IMG/VR virus record: IMGVR_UViG_3300004481_001935
Direction: 5' to 3' (one strand)
From: a virus
Length of the DNA stretch: 16,021 nt
Shown here: positions 4,899-7,581 of the stretch, piece by piece
How the letters are laid out: every line of letters starts with the position of its first letter
Position numbering within the stretch: the stretch's first letter is position 1
Notes under the pieces: generated by a model
Told to the model about the DNA's origin: nothing
Seen by the model: only the letters and a program-made list of their open reading frames with translations
The model's database searches: none
Made by a program: the position numbers and the translations under genes

Positions 4899-5315
4899 AT
4901 GCGTATTCTTATAGTAGAAGATCAAGAATATCGCATCGTAAAGTTTATGCACAATCTGGCTAGCTGCTCTGTAGAAGTAGCCAAATCTGCAAAAGAAGCA
5001 ATTAGCTTGCTAGAAAAAAGTTATTGGGACTGCTTACTTTTAGATCATGATCTTGAAGACGCAGTGTTTTATCCCTCTGGTCCAGGTACTGGATACGAAG
5101 TAGCCTGTTGGCTAGAAGAGCACCCACAAAAACAGCCCAAAGTCATCATTACACACTCACAGAATTCTACAGGGGTAAGGAATATCTGCAAGGCATTGCC
5201 AAATGCAGTGTCCTTTCCAAAATGCTGGGAGTTGGTTTCTCTCAAAGCCATTTTAGAAGCAATACACAAAGGAGAACAGGATGGTCTCGCTCGGCGACCG
5301 TATGAAGGTATATGA
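4899..5315 (+). CDS. Divergent receiver-fold protein, resembling the 'cyclic-phosphate processing receiver' (cREC) domain of RNA-repair loci
   Basis: MRILIVEDQ...LLLDHDL...GYEVACWL...KVIITHSQNSTG follows the pattern (MxILxVED, LDHDL, hS-N-G) I associate with stand-alone cREC domains. The tracked ORF 4872-5315 is trimmed to ATG 4899. Confidence 0.55.
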   Translation: MRILIVEDQEYRIVKFMHNLASCSVEVAKSAKEAISLLEKSYWDCLLLDHDLEDAVFYPSGPGTGYEVACWLEEHPQKQPKVIITHSQNSTGVRNICKALPNAVSFPKCWELVSLKAILEAIHKGEQDGLARRPYEGI

Positions 5316-6027
5316 GAACGCTTTTTGCCACTACCTACCGATCCATTCGTATGTTATAGTTCGCGTAGATGGCAAAGCGTTTCATACGTTCACAGAGCAG
5401 TGTGCTCGTCCTTTTGATTGTCAATTAGTAACCGCTATGGATGAGACTGCGCGTGCGCTTTGTGCAGAAATGCAAAATGCTAAATTTGCTTTCGTTCAGA
5501 GCGACGAAATAAGCATTCTCCTGTACGATTTTTGCAGGATAAATACTTCTGCATGGTTCGACAATAATCATGAGAAGATAGTTTCTATCTCAGCCGCACT
5601 TGCTACTTCTAATTTCATTAGGCATTATCATTTTGAACGAGAAATAATTCCTAATGGTTTTGGCTTTGACAGTAGAGCATTTGTGTTACCTACTAAAGAT
5701 GAGGTAGTAAACTACTTCATTTTCAGACAGCAAGACGCAACGCGCAATTCTATACAAATGGCAGCTCGTGCTATTTATTCACACCAAGATTGCGTCCACA
5801 AAAATCAAGAAAAATTGCAAGAAATGCTTTTCCAGAAAGGTATAAACTGGAACGACTATTTTACACGGTATAAGCGCGGCGGTTTTATTGACTACCATTC
5901 TAATACTATTCTTATTCCAGAGCACCCCTTTTCTTCCGGGTGGAAAATTATCGATCCTCCAATCTTCACTCAAGATCGAGAATTTTTGCTAAGTCGCATT
6001 CCCGAGCCGTTGCAGGACGAAACATGA
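5281..6027 (+). CDS. Thg1-like protein (tRNA-His guanylyltransferase family; 3'-5' nucleotide addition / tRNA 5'-end repair)
   Basis: RBS AAGGAG (5270-5275) precedes ATG 5281. VIVRVDGKAFHTFTEQCARPFD...FAFVQSDEISILL matches the Thg1 hallmark (VVRLDGRNFHRF...KP.D...YGQSDEYSFVF). Confidence 0.8.
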   Translation: MVSLGDRMKVYENAFCHYLPIHSYVIVRVDGKAFHTFTEQCARPFDCQLVTAMDETARALCAEMQNAKFAFVQSDEISILLYDFCRINTSAWFDNNHEKIVSISAALATSNFIRHYHFEREIIPNGFGFDSRAFVLPTKDEVVNYFIFRQQDATRNSIQMAARAIYSHQDCVHKNQEKLQEMLFQKGINWNDYFTRYKRGGFIDYHSNTILIPEHPFSSGWKIIDPPIFTQDREFLLSRIPEPLQDET

Positions 6028-6389
6028 AAGTTATTATTGCCGGTTCTCGCAAGTTTACTGACTACAAAATGCTTAGGCGTTGTATAGCTCAAATTATTAA
6101 TAAAGAGGGAATAGAAATTACAGAAGTCGTTAGCGGAACGGCTAGAGGAGCAGATCAATTAGGCGAGCGCTGGGCTCAAGAAAACGGGATCCCTGTAAAA
6201 AGGTTCCCAGCGGATTGGGACAAGTATGGTATTGCAGCGGGGCATATACGCAATGCCGCTATGTCAGAATACGGTGATTTTTTGATAGCATTTTGGCACC
6301 CAACAAGTCGAGGCACCACCAACATGGTTGCCAATATGATTCACCGGAAAAAGCCATATCGACGGTTCGACTTTGAAATGGAGAGCTAA
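6024..6389 (+). CDS. DUF2493 / SLOG-superfamily protein (121 aa)
   Basis: ATGA start/stop overlap with the Thg1-like gene. MKVIIAGSRKFTDY...VVSGTARGADQLGERWAQENGIPVKRFPADWDKYGIAAGHIRNAAM is the typical DUF2493 pattern. Tracked ORF trimmed to ATG 6024. Confidence 0.75.
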   Translation: MKVIIAGSRKFTDYKMLRRCIAQIINKEGIEITEVVSGTARGADQLGERWAQENGIPVKRFPADWDKYGIAAGHIRNAAMSEYGDFLIAFWHPTSRGTTNMVANMIHRKKPYRRFDFEMES

Positions 6390-6390
6390 T

Positions 6391-7581
6391 ATGCACTTCG
6401 ATATTCTGCCTTGTACACATTTTGTCGTAATTGCAGGTTCTCATGCATACGGAACTAATACGCCAGAAAGCGACCTAGACGTCAAAGGCTGGGCCATTCC
6501 CCCAACTAATATCTTGCTAAGCTATATACATAACTTCGAGCAAAATGATACCAAAGAAACGTTACAAAAGCATCCATTTCGCAAGCAATTAGAGTCTTAT
6601 TTATTGACCAATAAATTTACCTGCCAAGTAGATCCTGTAGACAGTACCATTTACAATTTGAAAAAATTCTTTGCCTTGGCAGCAGATTGCAATCCAAATA
6701 TCATAGATCTACTCTTTACTAAAGAATCCGAAATTATCTGGTCAGATTACTATGGTGATGAGATACGTGCAGCTGCCCCGTTATTTCTCAGCCAGCGAGC
6801 GCGGTATAGCTTTACTGGTTACGCCGTGAGCCAATTAAAGCGGATTCATACCCATCGAAGGTGGATCACCAATCCACCAAAAAAGAAGCCGGAGCGGGAG
6901 GATTACGGGCTGCCCTGCAGCTCATTAATTCCTCCTGACCAGCGGCAAGCCGCTCAAGCACTCATTGAAAAACAAGTGCGGCTCTGGCTGCTAGAAGAAG
7001 CAGAGGTAGATAAGGTCATTCTGGATCAGATTCAAGATGATTTGCTGCTTCTCATTGGCAGCATCCTAGATTTAAAGACAAGGGAGGAAGCTCGCGAGCG
7101 CGTTGAGTACGTTGTCGGGAAGAACTATGGCATGTCCGAAGAATATCTTAGCGTGCTACAGCGCGAGAAAAAATACAAATCGGCGCTGAACGAATTCAAT
7201 TCTTACCAAACCTGGCTGGAGAATAGAAACCCAGTACGGGCACAATTGGAGCACAAATTTAGCATTGACACCAAGCATGCTTCCCATCTCTGCCGTCTCT
7301 TGGTAGAAGCTAAAGAAATACTAGAAAAAGGTACGCTGACACTCAAGCAGCCAGAGCACGTAGAATTCTTTAAAGCTATAAAGAATGGCGCTTGGACCTT
7401 TGACAAATTGTTAGAATGGGCAACTGAAAATATGGCTATGCTGACGAACAAAGATATAAAGTGTGCTGTGCCTAAAACCGTTGACTCGAAAAAGCTTGAC
7501 CAAATCTATCGTGATTTGGTACTTTCTTCTATGGAAGAAGAAGAAATGTGGCACACAGTCCAAGACAACGAAGAAGAGTAA
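6391..7581 (+). CDS. Pol-beta-superfamily nucleotidyltransferase of the RNA-repair-associated (RlaP-like) type
   Basis: RBS GGAGAG (6380-6385) precedes ATG 6391. The N-terminal VIAGSHAYGTNTPESDLDVKGWAIPP is the G-S-x-AYG...DxD minimal nucleotidyltransferase signature of this family. Confidence 0.7.
   Translation: MHFDILPCTHFVVIAGSHAYGTNTPESDLDVKGWAIPPTNILLSYIHNFEQNDTKETLQKHPFRKQLESYLLTNKFTCQVDPVDSTIYNLKKFFALAADCNPNIIDLLFTKESEIIWSDYYGDEIRAAAPLFLSQRARYSFTGYAVSQLKRIHTHRRWITNPPKKKPEREDYGLPCSSLIPPDQRQAAQALIEKQVRLWLLEEAEVDKVILDQIQDDLLLLIGSILDLKTREEARERVEYVVGKNYGMSEEYLSVLQREKKYKSALNEFNSYQTWLENRNPVRAQLEHKFSIDTKHASHLCRLLVEAKEILEKGTLTLKQPEHVEFFKAIKNGAWTFDKLLEWATENMAMLTNKDIKCAVPKTVDSKKLDQIYRDLVLSSMEEEEMWHTVQDNEEE

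What the first reader, a model, noticed from the sequence alone, without database searches (positions are those of the whole stretch)
4899..7581. tRNA/RNA end-repair enzyme block between the MVP-like and TROVE genes
Seen: four tightly packed, partly overlapping genes. They are a receiver-fold protein with the cREC-like pattern, a Thg1-like protein, a DUF2493/SLOG protein and an RlaP-type nucleotidyltransferase. Stop/start overlaps occur at 5281-5315 and 6024-6027, and there is a 1-nt gap at 6390.

Established: bacterial and archaeal Thg1-like proteins rebuild truncated tRNA 5' ends by 3'-5' polymerisation. RlaP-type nucleotidyltransferases and cREC domains are recurrent in RtcB/Ro-type RNA-repair operons.

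Inference: the locus couples tRNA end repair to the RNP scaffolds, plausibly to counter host tRNA-cleaving defences during infection. No RNA ligase (RtcB or ATP-grasp type) is visible in this window.
Basis: partly seen in the sequence, partly recalled or inferred. Interest (0 to 1): 0.6.

Follow-up and report, generated by a model that had tools for sequence, protein, structure and literature searches.

The report
Phage RNA end-repair gene cassette
Four tightly packed phage genes encode enzymes from families that rebuild damaged RNA ends; the families are already known from other phages, so this is a confirmed but not unprecedented repair cassette, unusual for having no ligase and for sitting between a vault-like and a Ro60 gene next to an unclassified tRNA-shaped RNA.

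Summary
Four co-directional genes lie at 4899-7581: cREC receiver (4899-5315), Thg1-like protein (5281-6027), YAcAr/DUF2493 SLOG (6024-6389) and RlaP nucleotidyltransferase (6391-7581). All score above Pfam gathering thresholds. The overlaps and the 1-nt gap are as described. The Thg1 carboxylates (D30, D75, E76) and the RlaP motif (G16-S17, D28xD30, D106) are present. dN/dS against an 85%-related contig is 0.02-0.14.

The same gene order recurs in three related metagenomic phage contigs. cREC-RlaP-DUF7873-TROVE is the constant core of a conserved island running from DUF5661 and the MVP-like gene to Ro60. Thg1 and SLOG are gained or lost together.

TLP-RlaP adjacency, paired with a different phosphoesterase (HAD-SAK), recurs in unrelated viral contigs. 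No RNA ligase occurs in the window, which is a whole 16-kb contig, or in about 20 kb of five relatives.

The best reading is a ligase-less RNA end-healing cassette. All four families were already described in jumbo phages (Iyer 2021), so the novelty is moderate.

The block is actually contiguous from a tRNA-Met gene. It is followed, 1 nt after the RlaP stop, by a 217-nt tRNA-shaped RNA with strong covariation and no Rfam match.

The parts
4099..4171 (+). tRNA-Met(CAT) gene at the upstream edge of the contiguous gene run. It has an unusual T-loop, AUCGUAG.
   Evidence: ARAGORN; Rfam tRNA at 54.8 bits; fold. A tRNA-Met(CAT) also follows the MVP-like gene in L003, L004 and L169.
4171..4470 (+). 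orf4171, 99 aa, unknown function. It starts at the last base of the tRNA.
   Evidence: ORF list; no Pfam, PHROG or NCBIfam hit; 52% identical homolog in L004/L005.
4445..4897 (+). orf4445, 150 aa, a conserved partner gene lying just upstream of cREC in the related contigs. It carries an unclassified N-terminal domain with the motif G..TVAY...AFCSP.D.F.R..GR.IA.GRL.
4899..5315 (+). cREC receiver-fold protein, 138 aa, stand-alone. It is a predicted, not demonstrated, phosphoesterase.
   Evidence: PF20274 at 58.5 bits. D8, D49-H50-D51, H86 and N89 are invariant in six homologs, while the canonical receiver Lys is not conserved. It aligns to the NtrC1 receiver.
5281..6027 (+). Bacterial-type Thg1-like protein (TLP), 248 aa, a 3'-5' nucleotidyltransferase.
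   Evidence: PF04446 at 96.6 bits; 4kgk BtTLP at E 1e-51; D30, D75 and E76 invariant; phrog_4717 at E 6e-77.
6024..6389 (+). YAcAr (former DUF2493) SLOG-fold protein, 121 aa. Nucleotide-binding is inferred from the fold family; its role is unknown.
   Evidence: PF10686 at 69.4 bits. Invariant residues G7-S8-R9, G38xAxGxD44, R76-N77 and G97-T98. It is present whenever the TLP is present in this clade.
6391..7581 (+). RlaP-family Pol-beta nucleotidyltransferase, 396 aa.
   Evidence: PF10127 at 49.5 bits; phrog_388 at E 1e-58 over the full length; G16, S17, D28 and D30 invariant in 28 homologs, with an acidic residue (D106 here, mostly E elsewhere) in the conserved CNPNII[D/E] motif.
7582..7798 (+). 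Unannotated 217-nt tRNA-shaped RNA. It has a 7-bp acceptor stem, a D arm, a 6-bp arm with a 9-nt loop, a branched extra arm of about 130 nt, a canonical T arm and discriminator A. It starts 1 nt after the RlaP stop.
   Evidence: 85-89% DNA identity in L003, L169 and L004. RNAalifold predicts a cloverleaf. No Rfam hit. The covariance model finds 10 metagenomic and 24 viral homologs. 94.5% of cells are paired, against 38-46% in the slid controls, and 53 of 69 pairs show double changes.
8268..9026 (+). DUF7873 protein. It lies downstream of RlaP in all relatives and is not an enzyme-like fold.
9571..11172 (+). Ro60/TROVE protein (context).
   Evidence: vWA_Ro60 and TROVE Pfam hits; NCBIfam Rsr at E 8.5e-21.
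1412..4009 (+). MVP-like protein (context).
   Evidence: MVP_shoulder and Vault_3 Pfam hits. Among deposited phages, homologs occur only in three uncultured megaphage records.

Best explanation
The block is a phage operon for healing broken or trimmed RNA ends. It most likely acts on tRNAs or tRNA-shaped RNAs during infection.

What homology to characterised enzymes shows:
- The Thg1-like protein is a bacterial-type TLP. Such enzymes activate a 5'-phosphate and refill missing 5' nucleotides of a tRNA acceptor stem in the 3'-5' direction, using the 3' strand as template.
- RlaP-family enzymes add one or two nucleotides to an RNA 3'-OH and prefer cleaved-tRNA mimics.

What is inferred:
- The cREC protein supplies the missing 3'-end clean-up. 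It would open or remove the 2',3'-cyclic phosphate that blocks RlaP, which needs a 3'-OH.
- The SLOG protein is a nucleotide-binding accessory whose role is unknown.
- The set can restore both strands of an acceptor end without a ligase, which would explain why none is encoded nearby. Sealing of internal breaks would need a host ligase or a phage ligase encoded elsewhere.
- The cassette is one module of a conserved island with MVP-like, Band-7, DUF7873 and Ro60 genes, Y-RNA-like genes and tRNA genes. That island deals with structured RNA during infection.
For: - Family and active-site evidence.
- Purifying selection.
- Operon-like packing with coupled stops and starts. There are no more promoter-like sites than expected by chance inside the block.
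- Conserved order cREC-(x)-Thg1-SLOG-(x)-RlaP in L003 and L169/L170, and cREC-RlaP adjacency in L004/5 and L006. In every case the genes lie upstream of DUF7873 and TROVE.
- Independent recurrences of TLP next to RlaP, each with a candidate 3'-phosphoesterase: L041 (TLP-VWA-cREC-RlaP), L057/L060 (HAD_SAK_2-TLP-RlaP), L099 and L124/125.
- The neighbourhoods of the 80 closest viral TLPs contain HAD_SAK_2 (8 loci), PTH2 (8), a PheRS-like synthetase (7) and RNA ligase PF09414 (5).
- RlaP biochemistry: 1-2 NMP added to a 3'-OH, no activity on 3'-phosphate ends, and a preference for the broken-tRNA mimic (preprint PMC12776372).
- The jumbo-phage survey already assigns RlaP, Thg1 and cRec to RNA repair (PMC7824862).
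- A tRNA gene and a tRNA-shaped RNA flank the gene run.
Against: - No ligase, polynucleotide kinase or classical 2H/HD/HAD end-healing enzyme is in the window or in about 20 kb of five relatives. The canonical repair set is therefore incomplete.
- cREC and YAcAr have no biochemical characterisation. The same survey offers an NAD/ADP-ribose reading for both.
- TLP-RlaP adjacency is seen in only a small minority of loci: about 3-4 distinct cases among about 160 viral loci. It is suggestive but not statistically secured.
- The neighbours of 80 other viral RlaP genes are heterogeneous replication and nucleotide-metabolism genes with no ligase cluster.
- The adjacent tRNA-like RNA tracks tRNA arrays and TROVE rather than RlaP or TLP in other viruses.
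Confidence: 0.6

Rival explanations
1. The enzymes are biogenesis or maintenance factors for the phage's own structured RNAs: the tRNA-Met, the 217-nt tRNA-shaped RNA, the Y-RNA-like array and the phage tRNAs. They would trim and rebuild the ends of these RNAs for assembly with Ro60 and the MVP-like shell. On this reading they do not repair host tRNAs damaged by defence nucleases.
For: - In this clade the cassette is always embedded between the MVP-like or DUF5661 genes and DUF7873-TROVE.
- It is bracketed by a tRNA and a tRNA-shaped RNA with an acceptor end and no encoded CCA.
- Y-RNA-like hits follow TROVE.
- The window's tRNAs also lack an encoded CCA.
Against: - TLP, RlaP and cREC occur in hundreds to thousands of phages without TROVE or MVP.
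- In 24 other viral loci carrying the tRNA-shaped RNA, no RlaP, TLP or cREC is nearby.
- The acceptor stems of the window's tRNAs are fully paired, so no 5' editing is needed.
Confidence: 0.2
2. The block is two functional units. Only TLP and RlaP act on RNA. cREC and the SLOG protein, possibly with orf4445, would process or sequester nucleotide second messengers or NAD-derived signals of host immunity, such as cyclic ADP-ribose or cyclic oligonucleotides.
For: - The jumbo-phage survey predicts cRec to process cADPr or 2',3'-cyclic nucleotides, and predicts YAcAr SLOG domains to use NAD+.
- Relatives carry a CoaD-like adenylyltransferase in the same island.
Against: - cREC is the gene most constantly adjacent to RlaP: it is next to RlaP in all relatives, and again in the unrelated L041.
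- The SLOG gene co-varies with the TLP, not with cREC.
- The Acb4 match is no better than the dsRBD-like matches.
- There are no meaningful PADLOC hits.
Confidence: 0.12
3. The TLP is a housekeeping tRNA-His G-1 adding enzyme for phage-encoded tRNA-His, and the neighbouring genes are unrelated accessory genes.
For: - Thg1-family enzymes can add G-1 opposite C73.
- Related contigs encode tRNA-His.
Against: - The window has no tRNA-His.
- The relative that has the TLP (L169) already encodes G at -1. The relative without a nearby TLP (L006) has C at -1, which is the opposite of what this idea predicts.
- The protein is TLP-type and lacks the Thg1 HINNLYN region.
Confidence: 0.04
4. There is no functional coupling. 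The four genes are a chance mosaic of common phage accessory genes packed together by genome compaction.
For: - Each family is individually common in phages.
- The cassette is mosaic across relatives: Thg1+SLOG, Band_7 and CoaD-like genes come and go.
- RlaP neighbourhoods elsewhere are heterogeneous.
Against: - The same order is kept at 70-85% RlaP identity with saturated synonymous divergence.
- cREC-RlaP adjacency is kept down to 49-51% identity and reappears in L041.
- TLP-RlaP adjacency with an alternative phosphoesterase recurs in unrelated contigs.
Confidence: 0.04

Closest known systems
Bacterial Thg1-like proteins, e.g. Bacillus thuringiensis TLP (PDB 4kgk/4kgm)
   Same: Full-length alignment at E 1e-51; the same catalytic Asp/Asp-Glu; the same TLP-type 'RQQDA(T/S)(R/K)NSI' region in place of the eukaryotic HINNLYN.
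   Different: It is phage-encoded and sits in an operon with cREC, SLOG and RlaP. Its substrate is unknown.
RlaP nucleotidyltransferases (Pseudomonas PfRlaP/PaRlaP in rtcB-rlaP-rtcA operons; T4 NrdC.11)
   Same: PF10127 N-terminal Pol-beta domain with the conserved GS...DxD...D/E motif and a helical C-terminal domain. The family adds 1-2 NMP to RNA 3'-OH (PMC12776372).
   Different: The window protein belongs to a long (about 390 aa) phage clade, phrog_388. Pfam covers only residues 11-154, and there is no sequence match to any PDB chain. It is not next to RtcB or any ligase.
cRec (cyclic-phosphate processing receiver) systems of jumbo phages (Iyer et al. 2021, PMC7824862)
   Same: A stand-alone receiver fold with conserved Asp residues and no histidine-kinase partner, linked to RNA-repair genes.
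   Different: Here it is linked to RlaP, TLP and TROVE rather than to an RNA ligase. Its activity is still only predicted.
Ro60-Y RNA-RtcB loci of bacteria (rsr-yrlBA-rtcBA of Salmonella; PMC4201824) and the RNA-repair 'syntax' of Burroughs & Aravind 2016 (recalled from memory; paper not held)
   Same: A TROVE protein with Y-RNA-like genes beside RNA-repair enzymes; a nucleotidyltransferase plus scaffold proteins (TROVE, SPFH/Band-7-like MVP shoulder).
   Different: There is no RtcB, no ATP-dependent RNA ligase, no kinase and no methylase. It adds a 3'-5' polymerase and a SLOG protein, and it is phage-borne.
Phage T4 Pnkp/Rnl1 tRNA repair pathway
   Same: A phage-encoded answer to tRNA damage, in which end-healing enzymes prepare the termini.
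   Different: T4 heals and then seals anticodon-loop breaks with a ligase. This cassette has nucleotide-adding enzymes for both ends but no sealing enzyme.

Membership tests
Thg1 superfamily, TLP branch | Profile match to PF04446 above the gathering score, over the whole catalytic domain | tested here: met
   96.6 bits against a cutoff of 29.2; residues 6-137 match profile positions 2-130 of 130. phrog_4717 at E 6e-77.
Thg1 superfamily, TLP branch | Three catalytic carboxylates (human Thg1 D29, D76, E77) | tested here: met
   D30 in RVDG and D75-E76 in QSDEIS align to the human and BtTLP residues. They are invariant in 7 phage homologs.
Thg1 superfamily, TLP branch | TLP rather than bona fide Thg1: closer to bacterial TLPs and lacking the HINNLYN anticodon-recognition region | tested here: met
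   BtTLP at E 1e-51, against 3e-13 for human Thg1. The query reads RQQDATRNSIQM where human Thg1 reads RQADCHINNLYN.
Thg1 superfamily, TLP branch | Template-dependent 3'-5' nucleotide addition on 5'-truncated tRNA | not testable with these tools
   Needs an enzyme assay.
RlaP (PF10127) | Profile match above the gathering score | tested here: met
   49.5 bits against a cutoff of 23, but only residues 11-154 match profile positions 22-142 of 249. The full length matches phrog_388 at E 1e-58.
RlaP (PF10127) | Pol-beta motif GS...DxD plus a third acidic residue | tested here: met
   G16, S17, D28 and D30 are invariant. D106 in CNPNIID is E in most homologs.
RlaP (PF10127) | Genomic association with an RNA ligase, which gave the family its name | tested here: not met
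   No ligase family is found in the window or in L003, L004, L006, L169 and L170. There is no ligase cluster among the neighbours of 80 viral RlaP genes.
RlaP (PF10127) | Addition of 1-2 NMP to RNA 3'-OH | not testable with these tools
   Shown only for the Pseudomonas enzymes (PMC12776372).
cREC (PF20274) | Profile match above the gathering score and better than the canonical receiver | tested here: met
   58.5 bits (cutoff 27), against Response_reg at 29.8, below its cutoff of 30.2.
cREC (PF20274) | Conserved acidic residues of the receiver active site, with no two-component partner or output domain | tested here: met
   D8 and D49(H50)D51 are invariant. The canonical Lys is not conserved. 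It is a 138-aa stand-alone protein, and no histidine kinase is in the window.
cREC (PF20274) | Hydrolysis of cyclic phosphate or cyclic nucleotide linkages | not testable with these tools
   This is a prediction of PMC7824862 only.
YAcAr / DUF2493 SLOG (PF10686) | Profile match above the gathering score, with the Gly-rich SLOG motifs | tested here: met
   69.4 bits against a cutoff of 28.2. G7-S8-R9 and G38xAxGxD44 are invariant.
Complete RNA-repair system (ligase + nucleotidyltransferase + end-modifying enzymes + scaffold; as recalled from Burroughs & Aravind 2016) | RNA ligase (RtcB or ATP-dependent) | tested here: not met
   None is found in the 16-kb contig or in the relatives. DUF7873 and orf4445 models show no ligase-like fold.
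Complete RNA-repair system (ligase + nucleotidyltransferase + end-modifying enzymes + scaffold; as recalled from Burroughs & Aravind 2016) | Nucleotidyltransferase(s) | tested here: met
   RlaP and TLP.
Complete RNA-repair system (ligase + nucleotidyltransferase + end-modifying enzymes + scaffold; as recalled from Burroughs & Aravind 2016) | Kinase or phosphatase that prepares the ends | tested here: inconclusive
   Only the predicted phosphoesterase cREC is present. There is no Pnkp, HAD, 2H or HD protein in the window. HAD_SAK_2 takes this place in L057 and L119.
Complete RNA-repair system (ligase + nucleotidyltransferase + end-modifying enzymes + scaffold; as recalled from Burroughs & Aravind 2016) | Scaffold protein with a cognate non-coding RNA | tested here: met
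   TROVE/Ro60 with YrlA/YrlB-like hits, all below the gathering score. An MVP-like protein with a Band-7-type shoulder. A tRNA-shaped RNA at 7582-7798.

The most novel reading that the evidence does not exclude
The cassette is a ligase-independent system that repairs both ends of an acceptor stem. The TLP rebuilds the 5' strand. cREC and RlaP, with the host CCA-adding enzyme, rebuild the 3' strand. It would work on RNAs held by phage-encoded Ro60 and MVP-like particles, including the adjacent, previously unclassified 217-nt tRNA-shaped RNA. On this reading the phage carries a self-maintaining tRNA-mimic RNP that absorbs or reverses host attacks on tRNA ends.
Probability: 0.15. Interest if true: 0.8.

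Novelty: new variant of a known kind. Interest (0 to 1): 0.47.

Why it matters
Phage tRNA repair is the classic counter to host anticodon nucleases, and it has been understood as 'heal and seal'. This cassette has enzymes that add nucleotides to both RNA ends but no ligase. It is conserved as a unit next to Ro60, an MVP-like protein and tRNA-shaped RNAs. That points to repair of RNA termini rather than of internal breaks, and it gives a defined gene set for testing what cREC and SLOG proteins do. It also gives the poorly understood bacterial and phage TLPs and RlaP a concrete shared context. Finally, the locus exposes an RNA family that no Rfam model matched here: a tRNA shape with a branched arm of about 130 nt, found in phage tRNA arrays and often near Ro60.

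Tried and rejected
- DNA-level search of the block against 50,697 phage records found no match. The same search for the 217-nt RNA also found none.
- The exact-protein look-up of the TLP and the single-protein locus search for RlaP found nothing. An alignment-based search was needed.
- RlaP has no sequence relative in the PDB, by single sequence or by profile.
- Ligase hunt: the neighbours of 80 viral RlaP genes were clustered and scanned. They are heterogeneous (AAA, RNase_T, PurA, HesB, PD-(D/E)XK, RecA, HNH) and include no ligase.
- Hidden-ligase idea: the two conserved unknown proteins were modelled. DUF7873 gives only helical-bundle matches, and orf4445 gives only weak dsRBD/Rv1738/Acb4-like matches. 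Neither resembles a ligase.
- PADLOC gave no meaningful hit.
- Idea that the TLP edits mismatched 5' acceptor ends of phage tRNAs: rejected, because all three window tRNAs have fully paired acceptor stems.
- Idea that the TLP adds G-1 to phage tRNA-His: not supported.
- Idea that the tRNA-shaped RNA replaces a missing tRNA-Ser in arrays: rejected, because 12 tRNA-Ser genes occur in RNA-positive loci.
- Idea that the tRNA-shaped RNA is a specific partner of the enzyme block: not supported outside this clade.
- The afdb50 fold library was unavailable.
- Burroughs & Aravind 2016 could not be read. Statements about it rest on memory.

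
Full report
**1. Observation**

The window has a run of plus-strand ORFs.
- cREC: ATG 4899 to stop 5315
- Thg1-like: ATG 5281 to stop 6027
- SLOG: ATG 6024 to stop 6389
- RlaP: ATG 6391 to stop 7581

The 35-nt overlap (5281-5315), the ATGA overlap (6024-6027) and the single spacer base (6390) can be read directly in the sequence.

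All four Pfam matches exceed the curated gathering scores:
- cREC_REC: 58.5 bits (cutoff 27). The ordinary receiver model stays just below its cutoff.
- Thg1: 96.6 bits (cutoff 29.2)
- RlaP: 49.5 bits (cutoff 23)

PHROGs gives the same picture. Against the related contig L003, dN/dS is 0.02-0.14 for the four genes, so they are expressed proteins under constraint.

**2. Active sites and sub-family**

- The Thg1-like protein aligns end to end with the Bacillus thuringiensis TLP structure 4kgk (E 1e-51). It aligns much more weakly with human or yeast Thg1 (about 1e-13).
- Its D30 and D75-E76 sit on the catalytic carboxylates. It carries the TLP-type sequence where eukaryotic Thg1 has HINNLYN. These residues are invariant in seven phage homologs.
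- RlaP keeps G16-S17, D28xD30 and an acidic residue at 106 in a 28-sequence alignment.
- The cREC protein keeps D8 and a D49-H50-D51 motif but not the canonical receiver lysine.
- The SLOG protein keeps its glycine-rich motifs.

**3. Context**

The window is an entire 16,021-bp JGI contig, so nothing lies 'outside the window'. Relatives were found through RlaP and DUF7873 homologs and their contigs.
- L003 (RlaP 85% identical) has the same layout: DUF5661, MVP-like, tRNA-Met, orf, cREC, Thg1, SLOG, RlaP, DUF7873, TROVE.
- L169/L170 (RlaP about 70%) keep cREC-x-Thg1-SLOG-x-RlaP and add Band_7 and a CoaD-like adenylyltransferase.
- L004/L005 (51%) and L006 (49%) keep cREC directly upstream of RlaP. 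tblastn finds cREC where the gene caller had called an antisense ORF. These contigs lack both Thg1 and SLOG.

The constant core is therefore orf4445-like, cREC, RlaP, DUF7873 and TROVE. Thg1 and SLOG behave as one gain-or-loss unit. None of these stretches of about 20 kb contains a ligase family.

**4. Is the combination meaningful elsewhere?**

- RlaP homologs occur in 1,249 deposited phage records.
- TLPs occur in 164 deposited records and in at least 565 IMG/VR contigs.

Each gene on its own is therefore ordinary. Among 80 viral RlaP loci and 80 viral TLP loci, the two genes are neighbours in L041 (TLP-VWA-cREC-RlaP), L057/L060 (HAD_SAK_2-TLP-RlaP), L099 and L124/125.

The adjacency is recurrent, appears in different orders, and each time comes with a candidate 3'-phosphoesterase. 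But these cases are a small minority, and I could not show enrichment over chance.

TLP neighbourhoods contain HAD_SAK_2, PTH2, a PheRS-like synthetase, NAPRT and RNA ligase PF09414. That places phage TLPs in the tRNA-repair guild. RlaP neighbourhoods are heterogeneous.

**5. Mechanism**

Two steps rest on homology to characterised enzymes:
- TLPs refill 5'-truncated acceptor stems in a templated 3'-5' reaction (established biochemistry; structures 4kgk and 5axk appear).
- Pseudomonas RlaP adds one or two NMPs to RNA 3'-OH, is inactive on 3'-phosphate ends, and prefers the broken-tRNA mimic (preprint PMC12776372).

RlaP cannot use phosphorylated ends, so a phosphoesterase is logically required. 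cREC is the gene most constantly adjacent to RlaP, and it is replaced by HAD-SAK in other lineages. It is therefore the best candidate for that step. This is an inference, in line with the prediction in PMC7824862.

The SLOG role is unknown.

The set can rebuild both strands of an RNA terminus, which needs no ligase. That would account for the consistent absence of one, but it remains an inference.

Rivals considered:
- RNP or RNA biogenesis for the phage's own RNAs
- An NAD or cyclic-nucleotide role for cREC and SLOG
- G-1 addition to tRNA-His
- Chance mosaic

The G-1 idea is contradicted by the -1 bases of tRNA-His in L169 and L006.

**6. What lies around the block**

The tight packing starts at tRNA-Met (4099-4171), followed by orf4171 and orf4445. 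The latter is a conserved partner with an unclassified domain. It has 146 distant homologs, no Pfam family, and only weak fold matches.

One nucleotide after the RlaP stop begins a 217-nt element (7582-7798). It is 85-89% identical in L003, L169 and L004, which is more conserved than the flanking proteins.

RNAalifold folds it as a cloverleaf:
- a 7-bp acceptor stem
- a D arm
- a 6-bp arm with a 9-nt loop
- a branched extra arm of about 130 nt
- a canonical T arm
- discriminator A

ARAGORN and Rfam 15 do not recognise it.

A covariance model found 10 metagenomic and 24 IMG/VR full-length homologs. On 14 sequences:
- 94.5% of cells pair, against 38-46% for slid partners.
- 53 of 69 pairs show double changes.
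- No shuffle out of 500 reaches the observed scores.

Two caveats apply. The alignment is model-fitted, and one hairpin was the search key.

The 24 RNA-positive viral loci hold 236 tRNA genes. The 77 loci fetched by the same 15-mer but lacking the RNA hold 14. TROVE lies near the RNA in L361, L374, L302 and L235. RlaP, TLP and cREC do not, with one exception: metagenome locus L247, where an RlaP gene lies about 6 kb from the RNA.

The RNA therefore belongs with tRNA arrays and Ro60 rather than with the enzyme block specifically. I cannot exclude that it is the 'tRNA-like molecule' mentioned in the abstract of Burroughs & Aravind 2016, which I could not read.

**7. Comparison and novelty**

Every family, and its proposed role in phage RNA repair, is already in the literature (PMC7824862; PMC12776372). 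The finding is therefore not a new kind of system.

Four things are new:
- the operon itself: cREC-TLP-SLOG-RlaP
- its consistent lack of a ligase or kinase
- its fixed place in an island running from MVP-like to Ro60. MVP-like homologs are otherwise seen only in three megaphage records.
- the flanking tRNA-shaped RNA

I rate it a new variant of a known kind, of moderate interest.

Noticed in passing
window 7582-7798 (+): A 217-nt tRNA-shaped RNA: acceptor stem, D arm, a 6-bp arm with a 9-nt loop, a branched extra arm of about 130 nt, and a T arm. Neither ARAGORN nor Rfam 15 recognises it. Covariation is strong: 53 of 69 pairs show double changes. Homologs occur in 24 IMG/VR and 10 metagenome loci, mostly inside tRNA arrays and sometimes next to TROVE.
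   Followed up: yes
window 7761-8204 (+): The listed ORF starts at TTG 7761, inside the tRNA-shaped RNA. ATG 7800, one base after the RNA ends, is the more likely start.
   Followed up: partly
window 11199-12559 and 13560-13697 (+): An array of YrlA/YrlB-like (Y RNA) matches downstream of the TROVE gene, with E from 6e-11 to 0.39, all below Rfam gathering scores. The small ORFs listed there probably are not genes. The region is 75-88% conserved in L003 and L004.
   Followed up: partly
window 9281-9570 (+): The non-coding stretch upstream of the TROVE gene is 80-85% identical in L003, L169 and L004. It could be a leader, a promoter region or another RNA.
   Followed up: no
window 4099-4171 (+); L003 7982-8056; L004 6632-6704; L169 4127-4199: A tRNA-Met(CAT) always follows the MVP-like gene. 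The window copy has an odd T-loop, AUCGUAG (A54, U58), and lacks the three G-C pairs of bacterial initiators.
   Followed up: partly
window 4445-4897 (+): orf4445 is conserved directly upstream of cREC. Its N-terminal domain of about 70 aa has 146 distant homologs, mostly small proteins of about 90-170 aa, and no Pfam family. The model is confident, but fold matches are weak (dsRBD/uS5-like, Rv1738, Acb4).
   Followed up: yes
L004 6717-7295; L169 9184-9717: Relatives carry a gene that scores above the NCBIfam cutoff for CoaD (phosphopantetheine adenylyltransferase; 156-174 bits against a cutoff of 103) inside the same island. The window has no such gene.
   Followed up: partly
window 1412-4009 (+): The MVP-like protein has homologs in only three deposited phage records, all uncultured megaphages of 462-735 kb (LR756500/1/3). 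In the one record examined (LR756501) none of the other island genes is nearby.
   Followed up: partly
window 8268-9026 (+); L087 6995-7756: DUF7873 is a highly conserved protein family of about 250 aa, with 690 homologs found and many of the listed ones about 50% identical to the query. It occurs in 70 phage records. In Rhizobium phage RHph_Y65 it sits inside the tRNA array, 5 kb from a TROVE gene. Its model is a helical bundle plus a beta-sheet with no enzyme-like match.
   Followed up: yes
L169 18110-18183; L006 15473-15545: The phage tRNA-His in L169 encodes G-1 opposite C73. In L006 the base at -1 is C.
   Followed up: partly
L004/L005 9373-9747 (+): The public gene call there is an antisense ORF. 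tblastn shows a cREC gene on the plus strand, 52% identical to the window's.
   Followed up: yes
window 8212-8239 (+): The best sigma-70-like site of the region (TTGACT-16-TATAAT, 11 of 12 matches) lies just upstream of DUF7873. This suggests a separate transcription unit from the enzyme block.
   Followed up: no
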